Positions 1-13,621 of a DNA stretch of 64,000 nt are shown piece after piece. Position 1 is the stretch's first letter. Every line of letters starts with the position of its first letter. This DNA comes from an uncultured Alphaproteobacteria bacterium (GTDB taxonomy: Bacteria; Pseudomonadota; Alphaproteobacteria; Rs-D84), in the NCBI GenBank assembly GCA_944392775.1, contig CALXXV010000003.1, positions 61,279 to 125,278 on the forward strand. The letters are read 5' to 3'. The notes beneath the pieces were generated by a model that saw only the letters and a program-made list of their open reading frames with translations, had not been told where the DNA came from and did no database searches. The translations under genes and the position numbers were made by a program.

Positions 1-489
1 ACGTAACAATCGTATTTGACTTCCAAAGATAATTCTATATATGCGTTCAAACTCTGTTGCTATCCTATAATTTGTCGAATCCCTAACCATTATATCTATT
101 TTTTTATACGGCGATTCCGCTAAGTCTTTCTTTAACTTATTTTCTATTTCTAATGTATAAGCCTTCAACCCCGTATCAGGCAATTCTGGAAGATCATATT
201 CTGTCTTACGCTTTTTTAACTTCTTATCAGAAGTAGTTGCAGGAATATCAAATAATTTGTCTTGTGTGCTATTTTGAATATCTGGCTGATTTGAGTCACC
301 AAGTGAAAATTTATTGTCTTTTACTCGTAAATCTTCTCTGATCTTCTTTAACATACCAACTATATGCTTTTTCAGAGCAAAAAAGATTAGAAATACAATA
401 AAAGGCCAGCTAGTTAGCAACCCCACTATCGTTTTCACAATATAATCACCACCAATTCCTAAATATTCCAAGATGCTACATGTATTCAT
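1..489 (-). CDS. Hypothetical membrane-anchored protein (3' end truncated by window edge). ATG at 487-489, N-terminal hydrophobic segment, last gene of the R-M-like operon
   Basis: Hand translation of the reverse complement of 1-489 is stop-free (MNTCSILEYLGIGGDYIVKTIVGLLTSWPFIVFLIFFALKK...). Same strand as the upstream R-M genes and only 28 nt downstream of them. Confidence 0.45.
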   Translation of the reverse strand, partial: MNTCSILEYLGIGGDYIVKTIVGLLTSWPFIVFLIFFALKKHIVGMLKKIREDLRVKDNKFSLGDSNQPDIQNSTQDKLFDIPATTSDKKLKKRKTEYDLPELPDTGLKAYTLEIENKLKKDLAESPYKKIDIMVRDSTNYRIATEFERIYRIIFGSQIRLLR

Positions 490-516
490 TTAAACTTCCT
501 ATATTTATACTTAAAA

Positions 517-1887
517 TTAGTCTACCACCCCATAGATTTTTTTGATTTCTTCCAATGGTATATTTAACCCTATTGCTCTATATTTATGAGAAATAGCATT
601 AAACAATGTTTCTATCATGCGGGCCTTTACTTCCTTCGTACCATAATGGAAAGCCTTGTGACAGTTTGGACACAAAGAGACCAAATTTTCAACACAATCT
701 ATGTTTTTATGATACTTGTTCCATACAGCCTCCTGATTTGCTACCGGAATCAAGTGATGGGCCTCCATATATTGCTTATGAGTTCTGTTCGACATAAAGG
801 TTTCATGATCATGGTTAAATTCGCAACAATAATATGCCCTTTTGATCGCTATTTTACCCAAAATAGGATTCGTCTTCGGTCTTCTACCGTGTCCTTTTTT
901 TCCTTCTACAGCTATTGGTTGTACATCGTAAGCCTTTAATGCGATATCTTCATTGACATTATCTTCTTTAATCGCATCAACCTTTTCTAAGTACTCTCTT
1001 TCATCTGTTTCTTCATCATACACAGGCTGAACGACCTTTTCTTCCACGTCGTCTGCTGCCTCTACTACTGGTACATCAACCAAATCTATATTAAAATGTT
1101 GATTATTATACAGCATATATGAATAATCGATATCTCGTAAAAGTTGATTATGCAACTCATCCATTTCATGTTGTTTTATAAATTTTTTGAAAAAATAATT
1201 ATCAAAGTCTGGATTTATAGAGATAGCACTCGCAGTAACTGTAAAAAGAGAGATATTATTTCGTATAATGGTCAAAATACGACTGTTTCCTTCATATGCA
1301 TCCACATATTGTGAGACAGGCCCATTATTAGCTATAAATTCCGCAGCCTTATCTACATCAGAATATGAGTTACATGTAGCAATATAGGTCCAGAAATGAC
1401 CTTTTGATACTTCATTTATTTTGTATTTAGTCTGCAGCTTTTTTAATACCAAATAAATAAAAACAACGGGGAGTACACTATAGTCCTCATTGTTGTGTGC
1501 CGTATCAATGATGGAATGTATTTTTAATTTTAAAATTTGTTCTGTTTTTATTTTATTATACAGTTCAGAACCAACTTGTTCGTCTTTTATCAAATCAAAG
1601 ATTTCTGTTGGACGCTCTTTATTATAATGGTTGCCTCTGGTGTAGAAAGGTGTTTTTGTAATCAACCCATAAAGCTGTGCTATTACTAAAACACGATGCC
1701 TATCTGTTCTTATGCCATATTCTTGATGATGATTTGCAAAATACTGTTCAACATTTATATTCGGATCATAACAAATGTCCGCAAAAAGTTTAGCGGCCTT
1801 TACGGCCTCTTCAAAACTTGCATCTTGTTTAGTAAACACCCATGCTGATTTATTTGTTAGCGTCTTCAGATATTCTTGTGCTGTCAT
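517..1887 (-). CDS. HNH-family endonuclease, putative restriction endonuclease of the adjacent MTase pair (HphI/KpnI-like HNH REase class)
   Basis: C-terminal HNH motif YYCCEFNHDH...EAHHLIP...NLVSLCPNCHKAFH. Overlaps the upstream C5-MTase gene by 38 nt (translational coupling). Confidence 0.55.
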   Translation of the reverse strand: MTAQEYLKTLTNKSAWVFTKQDASFEEAVKAAKLFADICYDPNINVEQYFANHHQEYGIRTDRHRVLVIAQLYGLITKTPFYTRGNHYNKERPTEIFDLIKDEQVGSELYNKIKTEQILKLKIHSIIDTAHNNEDYSVLPVVFIYLVLKKLQTKYKINEVSKGHFWTYIATCNSYSDVDKAAEFIANNGPVSQYVDAYEGNSRILTIIRNNISLFTVTASAISINPDFDNYFFKKFIKQHEMDELHNQLLRDIDYSYMLYNNQHFNIDLVDVPVVEAADDVEEKVVQPVYDEETDEREYLEKVDAIKEDNVNEDIALKAYDVQPIAVEGKKGHGRRPKTNPILGKIAIKRAYYCCEFNHDHETFMSNRTHKQYMEAHHLIPVANQEAVWNKYHKNIDCVENLVSLCPNCHKAFHYGTKEVKARMIETLFNAISHKYRAIGLNIPLEEIKKIYGVVD

Positions 1888-2971
1888 CTTTTAATATCCT
1901 TTTAATCATTGTAGCAAAAAAGTAAGCAAGTTTTGGGGGAACCGCATTACCAATCTGTTTACATATGCTGGTTTTTGAACCTATAAATTGAAAACCATCT
2001 GGGAAACTTTGAATACGTGCTGCTTCTCTAGGAGTTAAAGTACGATCATAAAATGGATGCGTAAAACATCCGCCAGAAGGCGTATCGAAACGGGTCGTTA
2101 TTGTTGGTGCTACTCCATCAGGTATTAAGCGCCCATAAGAACCACTATGTACAGATTTTACAGGTTCTTTAAGTACCTTAAAATTTTTACCCTGTTGAAC
2201 TTCCTTCATGCGCCGCATTGCTATTTTATTATGTTTGGTTGCAATGTGGTTATATAAATTTGGGGATTGAGAATGTAATGAAGTTGTATATTCATTATTT
2301 GGTGTAACATTCGAAATTATCCCAGTATCACTCGGGCTTGGTAAATTGGAAATCGCATCCCATACGGATACCGCATTAAAGAAACCAGGCGTTTTTTTAG
2401 CTAAATATTTTTTAGTTTGTTCTATTTCAGTCTGAAGATCAAAATCAACCAAACTACCAATAAGTATTGTTCTCTCCCTAGCTTGTGGTATTCCAAAATC
2501 TTTTGCTTTAGCAATTGTGTACTGAAGTTTATACCCCAAACTTTCAAAAGCCTTTCTTATTTCTGCAAACACGCGCCCTTTATCATAACTGATAATGCCT
2601 TTGACGTTTTCAAAGATAAATATCTTAGGTTTAACAAGTTTCACTATGTTAAAATAATGTTTAAACAAATAGTTACGCGGATCGTCTATAAACCCATGAC
2701 GAATTCTTGCCCCTGCTGTAGAAAACCCCTGACATGGAGGACCACCAACTATTATATCTGCCATATGTTTAGAAAAATTCTTTCTATTATCCACATTCTT
2801 TATATCATCTACAATCATCTTGGTTTTTGGATGATTGTGAACATAAGATGCCGCAATGTCTTTATCATACTCAACAGCCACTATTACAGGTATACCTGCT
2901 TGTGAAAAACCGCACGAAAAACCACCACACCCCGCAAACAAATCTATAGCTTTAATCATCCGCTCCTCCAC
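1850..2971 (-). CDS. DNA (cytosine-5)-methyltransferase
   Basis: Motif I DLFAGCGGFSCGF, PC motif GGPPCQGFS, ENVKG motif. Confidence 0.85.
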   Translation of the reverse strand: MEERMIKAIDLFAGCGGFSCGFSQAGIPVIVAVEYDKDIAASYVHNHPKTKMIVDDIKNVDNRKNFSKHMADIIVGGPPCQGFSTAGARIRHGFIDDPRNYLFKHYFNIVKLVKPKIFIFENVKGIISYDKGRVFAEIRKAFESLGYKLQYTIAKAKDFGIPQARERTILIGSLVDFDLQTEIEQTKKYLAKKTPGFFNAVSVWDAISNLPSPSDTGIISNVTPNNEYTTSLHSQSPNLYNHIATKHNKIAMRRMKEVQQGKNFKVLKEPVKSVHSGSYGRLIPDGVAPTITTRFDTPSGGCFTHPFYDRTLTPREAARIQSFPDGFQFIGSKTSICKQIGNAVPPKLAYFFATMIKRILKDDSTRISEDANK

Positions 2972-4610
2972 TTATACGATATTTCAGAGCAAAATTCTTT
3001 ACATAATCTAACTCTTCCGGAGACAATTGATAAATTGTCGCTAAACAATCATCAATTTCATCAATCTCTGCCTTGCACAATTTGTGCTTATACTCATATG
3101 TAGTCTGTTTTGTACCTATATATTTCTTTGTTTTTTCTAACTTGTTCTCAAGTAATTTGGCTAATTTTTTAACTGTTTTATCATGTGGAATTTTATCCGG
3201 GACAGAAAACCCTTCCAGATCCTTGTTCGTAATATGCCAACAATCCGATATAATGGTCCAATAGAGCCAGAACAAACTAGAATTAAGAACGCATAACATA
3301 AAAGGCAGGTATTCTTCTTTGTATTTAAATTGTTTATACTCGTTAGACCCAGGATCAAAGGAGAAGGCTTTTATCCAAAAACATGCTCTCATATTCAAGA
3401 AAATATCCTTGCCCGCATTGGCTTGTGTGCTCAATATGTTGCCATTGAACAAAGAGGAAATTTTTTTATATATGCTATACTCAAGCTTATTACCAATTTT
3501 CGGTATATATAATTTATCATTTCCTTTTACATCAAAGATTTCTCTTCCATTCAATAATTCTTGTCTTTCATTTTTATACCAATGCTTATACGTGGAAGAA
3601 AAGGTTTTACATACATCATTCCCCTGTTTAGCAATAAGGATTGATATCTTTTGATGTGCACCAACGAACAAACAATCTGGCCGATCCGCAAAATTCAATA
3701 CTATTTGTTTTTCGCATTTGTTGGTTACAAATTCACGAAGTTTTCCCATACGACTAGTGGACACATATGATAAAGGTAATATAAGTCCCAACGAACCATC
3801 TTTATGCAACAGATTCAAACTATTGACTAAAGTATCTGCATACAAATTTCCATAGTTAGTATGCAATTCTTTGTGTCTAGGATATTTTCCATATTCTACG
3901 TACGGGGGATTACCTACTATATAATCAAACTTATTGTGTATTTTTTTATAATCCAGAATAAAATCATAGTGGTAAAAAGTAGAATTTATCATTTCTGCTA
4001 ATTTCATGTAAGATTCAGCATTTTTCATGCATGGAATAATTGCAAAGAATATTCTCATTTTTGCAATATCAATTGATTCTGTTTCTATATCATTCCCAAA
4101 TACAGTGCCACATATTTTGATAACATCATCGTCAGATAGAGGTATCTTGGCAACATTACACAATTCTAATTTCCACTCTATTACGCTGATCAAAAACTCT
4201 CCTGATCCACAGGTAGGATCCATAAATGTACGACTAAAAACAAGATCTTGTATCTGCCCCTTATTCAAGGTGGCAATCTTTTTTATTGCATCTTTCGTTT
4301 TTAATAATTTTCCAACAGATAATAAACTGGATGCTATTGTGTTGGAAACGACATAATCAGCAACGTCTCGCTGAGTATAATAAATACCTTTCTGCTTACG
4401 ATGTGTTTTAGAAAAAATATCTTGAAATGTCCTTATGGATATGTCTATATCGGATTTCTTGCTTAAAATATTATCTAAATTATATTTTATATAATTGCCA
4501 TTCAATAATATATGTAAAGCCTTCGTTGCCATGCCGACATCGATACTACCACAATTACGACTATTGCACCAACCAGCACATATAATATCTTCTATATTTT
4601 GCACAAACAT
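2952..4610 (-). CDS. N6-adenine DNA methyltransferase, gamma-class (Eco57I/TaqI-like), with C-terminal TRD
   Basis: Motif I FMDPTCGSGEF then motif IV GNPPY. The track start at 4637 is a GTG; ATG at 4610 (MFVQNIEDII) has an AAGGAA RBS, so the start was adjusted. Confidence 0.8.
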   Translation of the reverse strand: MFVQNIEDIICAGWCNSRNCGSIDVGMATKALHILLNGNYIKYNLDNILSKKSDIDISIRTFQDIFSKTHRKQKGIYYTQRDVADYVVSNTIASSLLSVGKLLKTKDAIKKIATLNKGQIQDLVFSRTFMDPTCGSGEFLISVIEWKLELCNVAKIPLSDDDVIKICGTVFGNDIETESIDIAKMRIFFAIIPCMKNAESYMKLAEMINSTFYHYDFILDYKKIHNKFDYIVGNPPYVEYGKYPRHKELHTNYGNLYADTLVNSLNLLHKDGSLGLILPLSYVSTSRMGKLREFVTNKCEKQIVLNFADRPDCLFVGAHQKISILIAKQGNDVCKTFSSTYKHWYKNERQELLNGREIFDVKGNDKLYIPKIGNKLEYSIYKKISSLFNGNILSTQANAGKDIFLNMRACFWIKAFSFDPGSNEYKQFKYKEEYLPFMLCVLNSSLFWLYWTIISDCWHITNKDLEGFSVPDKIPHDKTVKKLAKLLENKLEKTKKYIGTKQTTYEYKHKLCKAEIDEIDDCLATIYQLSPEELDYVKNFALKYRISGGADD

Positions 4611-4699
4611 TCCTTCTTTTCGCAACAAGATTAGCACTTATATTTGTTTTTATCAAGCTCCAAAAACGCAACATATTTTGTGAAACTCTTGCATGTTAA

Positions 4700-5190
4700 T
4701 ATACAACTTGAAGAGTTGTGTAGCCAGACGAGTGTTTATATATCAAAATTATACATTCGTTATATTTGTAATTTTGCATGAATTTATACATGGCATATAT
4801 ATTTTGGGATTATACAGTTGCTATACGCGATGTTATACGGATTTGGCGAATTTTTATATGACCATGAAATTTTTATGTTGTTATACAAGTGTATAAAAAT
4901 GTATCGCACAGCATCCCAATTTTTCGGGTTTTATCCAAAATTCATACAAGGCAAAAAATCGCATAAAAATCAAACGGAAAAATTTAAAACAAAATTACGG
5001 AAAATTCGCCAAAACCCACGGAAAACATTGGATATATTTGCATTATGTTCCAACAAAATACAATCGCAAAATTATACATTTGTTATACCGCTATTTTTAC
5101 TTATACAAAAATTATACGAAAAATCGGCTGTAAGCCACGCTCACCGCGGACTTAAAAAATACACTACATTCAATTGCTTATCTCTGTTAA
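4700..5190. repeat. Repeat-dense non-coding tract. At least 10 copies of TTATAC(A) and a 22-nt near-identical direct repeat CAAAATTATACATT(C/T)GTTATA at about 4745 and 5062. ACGGAAAA recurs 3 times at about 22-nt spacing (4970-5020). A 10-nt inverted repeat GGCGAATTTT/AAAATTCGCC lies at 4843 and 5000
   Basis: Direct reading. Expected chance count of TTATAC in 400 bp of this composition is below 1. Confidence 0.6.
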
Positions 5191-5195
5191 TCCGT

Positions 5196-5228
5196 ATGTC
5201 ACTGGTTCGAGTCCAGTTGCCCGAGCCA
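5196..5228 (+). other. Orphan tRNA 3' fragment: variable region, perfect T-arm ACTGG-TTCGAGT-CCAGT, 3' acceptor strand TGCCCGA, discriminator G, and CCA. No matching 5' acceptor strand upstream. Likely an attR-type remnant of island integration
   Basis: T-loop TTCGAGT with a 5-bp perfect stem. CCA at 5226-5228. The required 5' strand TCGGGCA is absent within 110 nt upstream. Followed immediately by a terminator. Confidence 0.6.
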
Positions 5229-5235
5229 CGAATTT

Positions 5236-5262
5236 CCGCAGATTTCTGCGGATTTTTTATTG
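5236..5262 (+). terminator. Rho-independent terminator CCGCAG-ATTTC-TGCGG followed by ATTTTTTATT
   Basis: GC stem-loop plus T-tract directly after the tRNA-fragment CCA. Confidence 0.6.
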
Positions 5263-11851: not shown

Positions 11852-12592
11852 ATGACCAAATATGTAGATTGCCATTGCCATTTAATAAAATCGATAAATC
11901 ACTGCGCTGATAATATAAGTAAAGCACGTAGTATGGGTATCGACACCTGCTTGTGTAATGCAACAAATGAAAATGATTGGGATGCTTTATTAGCCTTATC
12001 AAAAAAAATCCCGGAAATTCGTGTGGCGTTTGGAATACATCCTTGGTTCATATCAAATATAAAAAGCAATTGGAATAAAAGGTTAACTAAAATTCTTCTT
12101 AGTAATTCTAATTTTATGGTTGGGGAAATCGGTCTAGACAAAAACAAAGCTTTATTTGACTTACAAGAAAATATTTTTAATATCCAAATGGAAATCGCAG
12201 CAAGATTAAACAGGTGCGTAACCATTCATTGCTTAGGCGCATGGGATAAAATATTACAATATCTGAAAAGAAACGAAAAAGAACTGCCTCCTTGTATCAT
12301 ATTTCATTCTTATAACGGGAATGAAAAATTAACAACCGATTTATTAAATAAATGTAATGCTTATTTTTCGTATTCATTATTAAATTTAAATAATATAACC
12401 AACAAAACAAAAATATTAGTAAAAAGTACTCCTATTGATAAAATTTTGATTGAAAGTGACAGCGACAATATAAAAAATACAATACTAGCGTTTGATAAAA
12501 TTGCATCTATTCTTGATATAGATAAAGAAAATTTATCAAAACAAATATATGCAAACAGCCAAAAAGTTTTAAACCATGGACAAACTAAATAG
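11852..12592 (+). CDS. tatD: TatD-family deoxyribonuclease
   Basis: DCHCHL metal-binding motif; typical length. Confidence 0.7.
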   Translation: MTKYVDCHCHLIKSINHCADNISKARSMGIDTCLCNATNENDWDALLALSKKIPEIRVAFGIHPWFISNIKSNWNKRLTKILLSNSNFMVGEIGLDKNKALFDLQENIFNIQMEIAARLNRCVTIHCLGAWDKILQYLKRNEKELPPCIIFHSYNGNEKLTTDLLNKCNAYFSYSLLNLNNITNKTKILVKSTPIDKILIESDSDNIKNTILAFDKIASILDIDKENLSKQIYANSQKVLNHGQTK

Positions 12593-13274
12593 AATTCGTT
12601 TATTGCTTGGGGATGAAGCCATAGAAAAGCTAAAAAAATCAACCGTTATGATTGTCGGTTGCGGTGCAGTTGGTTCTTTCGCAATAGAAGCCCTTGCAAG
12701 AAGTGGTATAGGTAATTTACTTTTAATAGATTTTGATAATATAGAAGAAACAAATATAAACCGACAACTATTTGCACTAGAATCTACAATAGGACAACCT
12801 AAAGTAAACGTTGCGAAACAAAGAATTCAAGACATATCAAAAGACATAAAAGTCGACATAAAAAACATTTTTTTTGATGAAAATACAAATTTAAATATCA
12901 AACCAGACTTTGTAATAGACGCTATAGATACCGTAAAATCGAAGATAGCCATTTACAAATGGTGTCAAAAAAATAACATTCCTTTTATTTCTAGTATGGG
13001 TGCAGCAAGGAAAAAAGATATCTCTCAGATAAAAATTTCTAAAATTTTAAAAACCAAAGTTTGCCCTCTTGCCGCTAAAATAAGAAAAATCGTAAAATTG
13101 GAAAATTTGAATAATTTTGACGTGGTTTATTCTACAGAAACTGCAGATGATAATGTTCACGGGAAAAATTTTGGTTCAATAATAACCGTTACCGGAACTT
13201 TCGGATTATACCTAGCAGAATTCGCAATCAATCATATTATACAGAAACAAAGTTGCGGCAATGCAATCTTGTAA
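12576..13274 (+). CDS. tcdA: tRNA threonylcarbamoyladenosine dehydratase (ThiF/E1-like; TcdA/CsdL family)
   Basis: VMIVGCGAVGSFAIEALARSGIGNLLLIDFDNIEETNINRQ Rossmann/E1 motif. Confidence 0.65.
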   Translation: MDKLNRIRLLLGDEAIEKLKKSTVMIVGCGAVGSFAIEALARSGIGNLLLIDFDNIEETNINRQLFALESTIGQPKVNVAKQRIQDISKDIKVDIKNIFFDENTNLNIKPDFVIDAIDTVKSKIAIYKWCQKNNIPFISSMGAARKKDISQIKISKILKTKVCPLAAKIRKIVKLENLNNFDVVYSTETADDNVHGKNFGSIITVTGTFGLYLAEFAINHIIQKQSCGNAIL

Positions 13275-13408
13275 AACAAGACAAAAACCAACATTTCCTA
13301 AGACAAGAACCTTTTCCTAAATACAGCATTGCGATTGAAAGCTAATAAAAAACTGTATATAATTATTTTGTCTTAGGACAAAAACAAAATTTCTAAAAGG
13401 AGAAAGAG

Positions 13409-13621
13409 ATGAGAGGATTTACAGATTACGTTCTGAAACCATTGACTTTTATAGGCGCTCTAAATTGGGGGTTAATCGGTATATTCGGTTTCGATTTAGT
13501 CGCATTTATATTCGGCCCAGGAACTCTGGCCAGCAGCATTGTATACAGTCTTGTTGGTATTGCCGCACTTATATGGTTAATATGGATGTTCATAAATAAA
13601 AGCGATAATAGTGAAAAATAA
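13409..13621 (+). CDS. DUF378-family small membrane protein
   Basis: MRGFTDYVLKPLTFIGALNWGLIGIFGFDLV; strong RBS AAAGGAGAAAGAG. Confidence 0.6.
   Translation: MRGFTDYVLKPLTFIGALNWGLIGIFGFDLVAFIFGPGTLASSIVYSLVGIAALIWLIWMFINKSDNSEK

What the first reader, a model, noticed from the sequence alone, without database searches (positions are those of the whole stretch)
1..4637. Three-gene R-M operon with two methyltransferases of different chemistry and an HNH nuclease, plus a trailing membrane-protein gene
Tightly overlapping, co-oriented genes: gamma-class N6-adenine MTase, then C5-cytosine MTase (20-nt overlap), then a 456-aa HNH protein (38-nt overlap), then a membrane-anchored ORF. An m6A plus m5C MTase pair with an HNH REase is the architecture of Type IIS systems such as HphI, where each MTase protects one strand of an asymmetric site. 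The extra membrane protein is not a standard R-M component and may indicate an additional accessory or defence function.
Basis: partly seen in the sequence, partly recalled or inferred. Interest (0 to 1): 0.55.

Follow-up and report, generated by a model that had tools for sequence, protein, structure and literature searches.

The report
Type IIS-like restriction-modification operon, HNH nuclease
This is an ordinary but intact three-gene restriction-modification cassette (an adenine methylase, a cytosine methylase, and a nuclease built like a Type IIS restriction enzyme) carried on a small island inserted at a tRNA-Asn gene. The membrane-protein gene behind it is a separate neighbour, not part of the cassette.

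Summary
On the minus strand, three overlapping genes encode a gamma-class N6-adenine MTase (Eco57I/N6_Mtase), a C5-cytosine MTase (Pfam E=1e-78) and a 456-aa protein with a C-terminal HNH domain. A fourth ORF starts 27 nt later and runs off the window.

- **Conservation:** The trio occurs in the same order, abutting or overlapping, in 37 of 37 related loci from many phyla. No other gene is conserved beside it.
- **Interpretation:** The Type IIS reading (one MTase per strand of an asymmetric site, HNH cleavage beside it) is well supported by architecture. The recognition sequence is unknown, and kinship with HphI or Eco31I could not be shown.
- **Trailing gene:** It encodes a 237-aa membrane-anchored winged-helix protein that is absent from all 37 distant loci. 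In the window's own lineage its family also trails Type III R-M operons.
- **Location:** The cassette lies at the far end of a tRNA-Asn islet.

Verdict: a new member of a known kind, of modest interest.

The parts
2952..4637 (-). Gene 1: gamma-class N6-adenine DNA methyltransferase (Eco57I-like) with a C-terminal target-recognition region. The maximal ORF is 561 aa from GTG 4637. The probable start is GTG 4604 (550 aa) or ATG 4610 (552 aa).
   Evidence: Pfam Eco57I 3.8e-15 and N6_Mtase 1.4e-08. PADLOC MTase_II and the MTase/TRD part of a Type IIG enzyme, 3.6e-32. Motif I at aa 140 precedes NPPY at aa 243. Gene calls of 550 and 552 aa on L038 and L052. Ribosome-binding site AAGAAGGA.
1850..2971 (-). 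Gene 2: C5-cytosine DNA methyltransferase. The maximal ORF is 373 aa from GTG 2971. The probable start is ATG 2959 (369 aa), which overlaps the gene 1 stop codon by 8 nt.
   Evidence: PF00145 1.3e-78 over the full length. TIGR00675 dcm 7e-69. M.HaeIII 1e-39 in the PDB. All catalytic motifs are present. Junction analysis of 39 loci.
517..1887 (-). Gene 3: 456-aa restriction endonuclease candidate. Its start overlaps the gene 2 stop codon by 38 nt.
1063..1887 (-). Gene 3, aa 1-275: sequence-recognition domain with the BpuJI / N.BspD6I / FokI-type fold (tandem winged-helix subdomains).
868..1062 (-). Gene 3, aa 276-340: variable, acidic, low-confidence interdomain linker.
   Evidence: pLDDT 44-75 for aa 280-340. 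Alignment columns are unconserved. 20 D/E residues among the 70 residues aa 271-340.
520..867 (-). Gene 3, aa 341-456: HNH (beta-beta-alpha-metal) nuclease domain. Invariant residues are H377, H378, N401, H410 and H414. The putative zinc ligands are C355, H361, C406 and C409.
1..489 (-). Neighbour, not part of the module: the first 163 codons of a 237-aa protein. It has an N-terminal transmembrane helix (aa 21-39), a disordered linker and a C-terminal winged-helix domain. It starts 27 nt after the gene 3 stop codon and is cut by the window edge.
4638..5183 (.). Non-coding spacer upstream of the operon. It holds sigma-70-like promoter candidates on the minus strand (for example 4836-4809, ATAACA-16-TATAAT) and a cluster of seven TGTATAA heptamers (4749-5107).
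   Evidence: Promoter scan; these are consensus matches only and are no more frequent than in shuffled sequence. Heptamer cluster. The spacer is 93% conserved in L056.
5184..5228 (+). 45-nt copy of the 3' part of tRNA-Asn(GTT), running from the anticodon loop to CCA. It is the distal direct repeat (att remnant) of the islet that carries the operon.
   Evidence: Identical over all 45 nt to the 3' part of the intact tRNA-Asn of L038. In L056, the same fragment and an intact tRNA-Asn bracket a roughly 7-kb segment holding this operon.
5235..5252 (+). Terminator-like hairpin followed by a T-run, just after the tRNA fragment. It is probably the original tRNA terminator and marks the chromosomal side of the junction.

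Best explanation
This is a self-contained, horizontally mobile Type II restriction-modification cassette of the Type IIS kind.

**Expression.** One transcript, starting in the 550-bp spacer upstream, is read as three translationally coupled genes with the MTases first.

**Modification.** Gene 1 (gamma-class m6A MTase with its own C-terminal recognition region) and gene 2 (m5C MTase) each modify one strand of a short asymmetric recognition sequence.

**Restriction.** Gene 3 is the cognate endonuclease.
- Its N-terminal 275-aa domain has the BpuJI/BspD6I/FokI fold and reads the unmethylated site.
- A flexible acidic linker positions the C-terminal HNH domain.
- The HNH domain has one active site (H377/H378, N401, H410/H414) and a structural zinc site. 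It cuts at a fixed short distance to one side.
- Because each chain has a single active site, a double-strand cut needs either transient dimerisation (as in FokI) or two sequential cuts.

**What is shown and what is inferred.**
- Shown: gene content, intact catalytic motifs, conserved synteny and junction overlaps, and the two-domain fold of the nuclease.
- Inferred: strand-specific methylation, methylation sensitivity of the nuclease, cleavage outside the site, and the identity of the site.

**Setting.** The cassette sits at the distal end of a small islet integrated into tRNA-Asn. The downstream membrane-anchored winged-helix gene is a separate islet gene.
For: - Domain assignments and intact motifs.
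- 37 of 37 related loci from at least seven major lineages keep N6-C5-HNH in this order.
- The C5 start overlaps the N6 stop in all 39 loci with both junctions (37 distant loci minus L024, plus L038, L039 and the window); the HNH start overlaps the C5 stop in all but two, where it lies within 2 nt.
- No other gene is shared by more than 5 of the 37 loci.
- Its C-terminal domain matches HNH nucleases.
- The recognition domain is as conserved as the catalytic domain across 61 homologues, as expected for a fixed specificity.
- The literature states that Type IIS systems with asymmetric sites generally use two MTases, one per strand, and that HNH Type IIS enzymes exist, namely MnlI, HphI, Eco31I and HpyAV (PMC4081073; PMC2441816; PMC5714182).
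- Mobility: the 45-nt tRNA-Asn repeat and three different flanking contexts for near-identical cassettes.
Against: - No biochemical or methylome data exist, and the recognition sequence is unknown.
- No sequence of a characterised Type IIS HNH enzyme could be compared.
- The only sequence-level matches of the nuclease are to the HNH domain of Type IV enzymes: PADLOC mREase_IV at 3.9e-07 and EcoKMcrA. An automated annotator would therefore call it McrA-like, and one source does so.
- The N6 MTase scores far below the cut-off of the one named Type IIS MTase family it touches (TIGR02987, 54 versus 353 bits).
- Pooled k-mer counts in host loci gave no clear depleted asymmetric site attributable to this system.
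Confidence: 0.8

Rival explanations
1. Gene 3 is a Type IV (McrA-like) modification-dependent HNH nuclease that merely sits beside two MTases of unrelated specificity.
For: The best sequence matches of the HNH domain are EcoKMcrA (E=1e-4; 1e-6) and PADLOC mREase_IV. Some sources name homologues 'McrA'.
Against: The similarity is confined to aa 325-434. The N-terminal 275 aa match sequence-specific Type IIS recognition domains, not the 5mC-reading N-domain of McrA. The nuclease is found with both MTases, with overlapping reading frames, in 37 of 37 loci. A methyl-dependent nuclease fused in an operon to two active MTases would risk self-restriction.
Confidence: 0.05
2. The functional unit has four genes: the membrane-anchored winged-helix protein works with the R-M system, for example as a regulator, sensor or back-up effector.
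For: The gene starts 27 nt after the nuclease stop codon, on the same strand, with its own ribosome-binding site. It follows the same cassette in L038 and in L056/L057 despite different flanks. Family members also lie directly after, and co-oriented with, Type III Mod-Res operons (L040-42) and SNF2-DUF4391-Mod-Res operons (L059-61).
Against: It is absent from all 37 distant loci that keep the three-gene cassette. It also occurs without an adjacent co-oriented R-M operon (L048, L049-51, L043, L058). Its history is discordant with the nuclease: the window's HNH protein is 98.5% identical to that of L056, but the membrane protein only 72%. It has no defence-family match, and its fold is a generic winged helix.
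Confidence: 0.1
3. The genes are two or three independent entities, such as an orphan m6A MTase, an orphan m5C MTase and a selfish or homing HNH nuclease, juxtaposed by chance in a defence island.
For: Many HphI-family HNH proteins lack MTase neighbours and were suggested to be homing-like (PMC2441816). The locus lies in an islet rich in unrelated defence genes.
Against: Order, orientation and junction overlaps are conserved across phyla in 37 of 37 loci, while every flanking gene changes. All 75 representatives found with the recognition domain carry it at the N-terminus of the protein where the N-terminus is present. The nuclease is not in an intron, intein or phage context.
Confidence: 0.03

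Closest known systems
HphI R-M system (Haemophilus parahaemolyticus, GGTGA 8/7)
   Same: Type IIS system with three co-oriented genes. It has one m6A and one m5C MTase, and a restriction enzyme whose catalytic domain is a C-terminal HNH of the Pfam HNH_2 type behind a variable N-terminal domain (PMC5714182 group 6; PMC2441816; gene content from memory of Lubys et al. 1996).
   Different: From memory, the HphI gene order is C5-N6-R; here it is N6-C5-R. No HphI sequence was available, so homology is untested. GGTGA is not depleted in host loci (observed/expected 0.99), which is weak evidence against the same specificity.
Eco31I / Esp3I / Alw26I family (GTCTC-core Type IIS systems)
   Same: An HNH restriction enzyme with a single active site (PMC2441816), plus a gamma-class m6A MTase and an m5C MTase. 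The best NCBIfam hit of gene 1 is this family's adenine MTase model TIGR02987. From memory, the fused M.Alw26I and M.Esp3I have the same m6A-then-m5C order.
   Different: Gene 1 scores 54 bits against a 353-bit cut-off, so it is not a member. From memory, the Eco31I HNH site is mid-protein (D311/H312/N334) rather than C-terminal.
BpuJI, N.BspD6I (PleI/MlyI group) and FokI
   Same: The same fold of the N-terminal sequence-recognition domain, and the same domain logic of recognition domain, linker and separate cleavage domain.
   Different: Their cleavage domains are PD-(D/E)XK; here it is HNH. There is no detectable sequence similarity, and identity in the structural alignments is 13-16%.
MnlI (CCTC 7/6)
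   Same: A Type IIS enzyme with an N-terminal recognition part and a C-terminal HNH domain, grouped with McrA-type HNH domains (PMC5714182 group 1). From memory, it protects with both m6A and m5C activities.
   Different: From memory, the MnlI MTase activities are fused into one protein. No sequence comparison was possible.
EcoKMcrA (Type IV)
   Same: The HNH domain is the closest solved relative.
   Different: McrA has an N-terminal 5mC-reading domain, has no cognate MTases and attacks modified DNA. Here the N-terminal domain is of the Type IIS recognition type and two MTases are always attached.

Membership tests
Type II R-M system, subtype IIS | Separate restriction and modification genes forming one unit | tested here: met
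   Three separate, overlapping genes, syntenic in 37 of 37 loci.
Type II R-M system, subtype IIS | Restriction enzyme built from a sequence-recognition domain and a separate cleavage domain | tested here: met
Type II R-M system, subtype IIS | Two methyltransferase activities, one for each strand of an asymmetric site | tested here: inconclusive
   Two MTases of different chemistry are always present. Strand assignment cannot be tested by computation.
Type II R-M system, subtype IIS | Asymmetric recognition sequence with cleavage at a fixed distance outside it | not testable with these tools
   This needs a methylome and in-vitro cleavage mapping. The k-mer depletion test was uninformative.
HphI-family restriction enzymes (HNH_2, His-Me finger group 6) | Sequence homology to R.HphI over the catalytic domain | not testable with these tools
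   The protein matches Pfam HNH_2, but that model is shared by groups 1, 6 and 38. No R.HphI sequence was accessible, and the original paper is not held.
HphI R-M system | Gene order hphIMC (C5), hphIMA (N6), hphIR | tested here: not met
   The order here is N6, C5, R. The HphI order is recalled from memory.
Alw26I/Eco31I/Esp3I adenine MTase family (TIGR02987) | Score at or above the curated cut-off of 353.5 bits | tested here: not met
   53.9 bits, with partial matches only.
C5 cytosine DNA methyltransferases (PF00145 / TIGR00675) | Full-length match above the cut-off, with motifs I, IV (PCQ), VI (ENV), VIII and X | tested here: met
   265 bits against a cut-off of 22, and 233 against 100.65. 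Motifs located.
Gamma-class N6-adenine DNA MTases (Eco57I / N6_Mtase) | Motif I (FxGxG-type) N-terminal to motif IV (NPPY), with the recognition region C-terminal | tested here: met
   DPTCGSG at aa 140 and NPPY at aa 243. Pfam hits above cut-off. The C-terminal 330 aa match the MTase/TRD end of a Type IIG enzyme model.
Type IV McrA-like enzymes | N-terminal modified-base-reading domain and no cognate MTase | tested here: not met
   Only the HNH domain aligns with 6ghc. The N-domain matches Type IIS recognition domains. MTases are present in 37 of 37 loci.
HNH homing endonucleases | Free-standing or intron/intein-encoded gene in a phage or mobile-intron context, without MTases | tested here: not met
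   The gene is always the third gene of the MTase operon. No phage or plasmid record holds a full-length homologue (plasmids).

The most novel reading that the evidence does not exclude
The trailing 237-aa membrane-anchored winged-helix protein may be an undescribed accessory or stand-alone defence component that attaches to the 3' end of unrelated restriction operons. It follows this HNH Type IIS cassette, Type III Mod-Res operons and SNF2-DUF4391-Mod-Res operons, always co-oriented and 16-27 nt behind the last gene. It might tether or sense DNA at the membrane, or regulate the upstream operon. Separately, the cassette itself may have a Type IIS specificity not yet represented among characterised enzymes.
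Probability: 0.15. Interest if true: 0.55.

Novelty: new member of a known kind. Interest (0 to 1): 0.3.

Why it matters
As an R-M system it adds little conceptually. Two-MTase Type IIS systems with HNH nucleases have been known since the 1990s.

It does have practical value. This is a compact, widely distributed family (410 homologue clusters) whose recognition domain is conserved. One characterisation would assign a specificity to hundreds of gut and rumen metagenomic genes, and could yield a new Type IIS reagent.

It also illustrates domain shuffling. The same recognition domain is joined to HNH here and to McrB-like AAA+ modules in relatives.

The membrane-anchored winged-helix gene that recurs behind different restriction operons is the only element that might lead to something new.

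Tried and rejected
1. **Naming the system.** No REBASE was available. The HphI cloning paper (PMC146015) and the Eco31I HNH paper (PMC2754561) are not held. The afdb50 fold library, which might have listed R.HphI by name, was not installed. A tblastn search of plasmids found only isolated HNH domains, with at most 35% of the query covered. Profile and sequence searches of the PDB matched only the HNH domain.
2. **Inferring the recognition site.** I pooled 646 kb of host loci and compared k-mer counts with a Markov expectation. The strongest depletions are common palindromes (GATC, GGCC, CCGG). Among asymmetric 5-mers, GCAGC, CCATC, GAAGC and GTCTC are modestly low, and GGTGA is not. Without matched genomes lacking the system, nothing can be attributed to it, so I rejected this as evidence.
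3. **Recovering the window's own contig to the left.** Exact look-ups of the HNH and C5 proteins returned only contigs of 2-6 kb. I used the close relatives L038 and L056/L057 instead.
4. **McrA-type reading.** Rejected on domain architecture and synteny.
5. **A conserved controller (C) protein or Vsr gene.** None was found. Small HTH ORFs occur upstream in only 3-4 of 37 loci.
6. **Integrase identity of the 385-aa gene next to tRNA-Asn in L038.** It has no Pfam match, so this was left open.
Full report
**1. What is in the sequence**

All genes of the finding lie on the minus strand.
- The ORF 2952..4637 (561 aa as a maximal ORF) matches Pfam Eco57I (3.8e-15) and N6_Mtase (1.4e-08). It also matches PADLOC Type II MTase models, and its C-terminal 330 aa match the MTase/target-recognition end of a Type IIG enzyme model (3.6e-32). 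Motif I (DPTCGSG, aa 140) precedes motif IV (NPPY, aa 243), which is the gamma-class order.
- The ORF 1850..2971 (373 aa) is a full-length C5 cytosine MTase: PF00145 at 1.3e-78, TIGR00675 at 7e-69 and M.HaeIII at 1e-39. Motifs I, IV, VI, VIII and X are intact.
- The ORF 517..1887 (456 aa) has an HNH_2 domain near its C-terminus (6e-08).
- A fourth ORF starts at 489, 27 nt after the HNH stop codon, behind an AGGAAG ribosome-binding site, and runs off the left edge. Residues 21-39 are strongly hydrophobic (Kyte-Doolittle mean 2.41).

- The N6 MTase probably starts at GTG 4604 or ATG 4610. Gene callers on related contigs give 550 or 552 aa, and an AAGAAGGA ribosome-binding site precedes it.
- The C5 MTase probably starts at ATG 2959, which gives an 8-nt rather than a 20-nt overlap. 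Several homologous loci offer only that ATG.
- The 38-nt C5/HNH overlap stands.

**2. Is it one system?**

The nuclease has 410 homologue clusters, nearly all about 455 aa and alignable end to end. A scan of one genome per species returned 37 loci. They come from Clostridia, Christensenellaceae, Muribaculaceae, Alphaproteobacteria, Gastranaerophilales/Vampirovibrio, Neisseriaceae, Tenericutes, Mucispirillaceae and Bacilli.
- In all 37 loci, tblastn finds the N6 MTase, then the C5 MTase, then the nuclease, on one strand and abutting.
- In all 39 loci where both junctions are present (37 minus L024, plus L038, L039 and the window), the C5 start overlaps the N6 stop (1-23 nt, mostly 4-17 nt). In all but two loci the nuclease start overlaps the C5 stop (4-80 nt); in L025 and L026 it follows within 2 nt.
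- Clustering all other ORFs within 4 kb showed nothing shared by more than 5 loci. The commonest were serine recombinases.

The three genes therefore behave as a single, self-sufficient, horizontally moving unit.

**3. What kind of nuclease?**

By sequence, only the C-terminal 110 aa match anything known: the HNH domain of the Type IV enzyme EcoKMcrA and the PADLOC mREase_IV model.

Foldseek independently ranked N.BspD6I, EcoKMcrA, BpuJI and ScoMcrA at probability 1.00.

The resulting architecture is as follows:
- **aa 1-275:** a Type IIS recognition domain.
- **aa 276-340:** a variable, acidic, low-confidence linker.
- **aa 341-456:** an HNH domain with invariant H377, H378, N401, H410 and H414, and a C355/H361/C406/C409 zinc-type site.

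The N-terminal domain is as conserved as the catalytic one across the family. That fits a fixed sequence specificity. This is the FokI/MnlI-style design of a Type IIS enzyme, not the design of McrA.

**4. Mechanism proposed**
- **Shown:** three intact enzymes, a coupled operon with the MTases first, and a two-domain nuclease.
- **Inferred from established knowledge of Type IIS systems** (PMC4081073): the site is asymmetric. The m6A MTase marks one strand and the m5C MTase the other. The nuclease binds unmodified sites as a monomer and cuts a short fixed distance away. Because there is one HNH site per chain, it either dimerises transiently or cuts the strands in turn.
- **Promoter:** candidates lie in the 550-bp spacer (for example 4836-4809), but such matches are no more frequent than in shuffled sequence.

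**5. Comparison with known systems**

HNH Type IIS enzymes are known (MnlI, HphI, Eco31I, Hin4II/HpyAV; PMC2441816). Pfam HNH_2 covers both the McrA/MnlI group and the AlwI/BbrI/HphI group of His-Me finger nucleases (PMC5714182).
- **HphI.** I could not test homology because no sequence was accessible. From memory, the HphI gene order is C5-N6-R.
- **Eco31I family.** The best NCBIfam hit of the N6 MTase is the Alw26I/Eco31I/Esp3I adenine MTase model, but at 54 bits against a 353-bit cut-off. It is at most a distant cousin.
- **Other libraries.** No PADLOC restriction-enzyme model covers the N-terminal domain, and no plasmid record holds a full-length homologue.

I therefore file it as a new member of a known kind, with unknown specificity.

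**6. The trailing gene**

The complete protein in relatives is 237 aa and belongs to a small family of 22 clusters.
- **Not part of the cassette.** It is absent from all 37 distant cassette loci.
- **Contexts within its own lineage:**
  - It follows this cassette in L038 and L056/57.
  - It follows Type III Mod-Res operons (L040-42, 24-nt gap).
  - It follows SNF2-DUF4391-Mod-Res operons (L059-61).
  - It sits near other MTase/nuclease genes or an ABC-type ATPase.
- **Downstream neighbours.** These are also defence genes: Mrr, GmrSD, the PADLOC candidate PDC-S42, and a SocA/Panacea toxin-antitoxin pair.
- **Discordant history.** The window's nuclease is 98.5% identical to that of L056 but its membrane protein only 72%. 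Against L038 the figures are 88% and 97%.

It is best seen as an independent islet gene. A general role alongside restriction operons cannot be excluded.

**7. Genomic setting**
- Window 5184-5228 (+ strand) is a 45-nt copy of the 3' part of tRNA-Asn(GTT). It is identical to the corresponding part of the intact tRNA-Asn in L038 and is followed by a terminator-like hairpin.
- In L056 the same fragment and an intact tRNA-Asn bracket about 7 kb containing the cassette, the membrane-protein gene and a toxin-antitoxin pair. The window therefore shows the distal end of a tRNA-Asn islet. The other end lies beyond the left edge.
- Near-identical cassettes occur in three different flanking contexts.
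- Identity to L038 is mosaic: 99-100% across most of both MTase genes (window 4000-2200), but 81-87% across the nuclease gene. This indicates recombination within the operon.

**8. Verdict**

It is a routine kind of system, well preserved and widely spread. Interest is modest (0.3).

Noticed in passing
window 5184-5228 (+), with the hairpin at 5235-5252; L056:6265-6309 and L056:13314-13389; L038:17521-17596: A 45-nt 3' fragment of tRNA-Asn(GTT) lies 550 bp upstream of the operon. In L056, the fragment and an intact tRNA-Asn bracket a roughly 7-kb islet (R-M cassette, membrane protein, SocA/Panacea pair) that contains no integrase gene. A tyrosine integrase with an HTH_17 gene lies on the other side of the tRNA.
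   Followed up: partly
window 4749-5107: Seven exact TGTATAA heptamers (six on the minus strand) lie within 360 bp of the non-coding spacer, against 36 in the whole 64-kb window. The spacer is 93% conserved in L056. L038 has GTATGT/ACATAC repeats at the equivalent place. These may be recombinase arm sites or regulator-binding sites.
   Followed up: no
window 1-489 (-); L038:11393-12106; L040:6001-6720; L059:6001-6717; L061:7001-7714: A family of 237-aa membrane-anchored winged-helix proteins recurs as the last co-oriented gene, 16-27 nt behind three unrelated kinds of restriction operon. It is flanked downstream by Mrr, GmrSD, PDC-S42 or SocA/Panacea genes. It has no family assignment in Pfam, PADLOC or NCBIfam.
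   Followed up: partly
window 600-4800 compared with L038:7090-11900 and L056: Similarity is mosaic. Most of both MTase genes (window 4000-2200) is 99-100% identical to L038, while the nuclease gene is 81-87% identical. The window's nuclease is 98.5% identical to that of L056, while the adjacent membrane protein is only 72%. This implies recombination breakpoints inside the operon and at its 3' end.
   Followed up: partly
proteins P0207, P0208, P0210, P0256, P0261 (relatives of window aa 1-275 of the nuclease): The same N-terminal recognition domain is fused in longer relatives (637-857 aa) to AAA_5 (McrB/dynein-type) ATPase domains instead of HNH. This suggests the recognition module is shuffled between single-chain HNH enzymes and McrBC/LlaJI-like motor-driven restriction systems. 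The whole domain family is small: 75 representatives among 1.84 billion proteins.
   Followed up: partly
loci L004, L009-L015, L030 versus the other L001-L037 loci: Identity of the N6 MTase to the window falls into three classes (about 50%, 41% and 33%). The C5 MTase and the nuclease stay at about 50-65% throughout. The adenine MTase either evolves faster or has been exchanged within the cassette.
   Followed up: no
L038:1-21365: A related genome carries the cassette inside a dense defence island. The island holds an OLD-family AAA_15/TOPRIM nuclease, small HNH genes, an Mrr-type enzyme, a reverse transcriptase, DUF488, an EcoRI-like methylase with a GmrSD/HNH protein, and a resolvase.
   Followed up: no
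window 12578-13593 versus L038:3513-4538: Housekeeping-type genes (ThiF, DUF378) of the window and L038 are only 70-74% identical at the DNA level and lie in the opposite relative orientation. The R-M cassette is about 92% identical. This is consistent with recent horizontal transfer of the cassette between different species.
   Followed up: no
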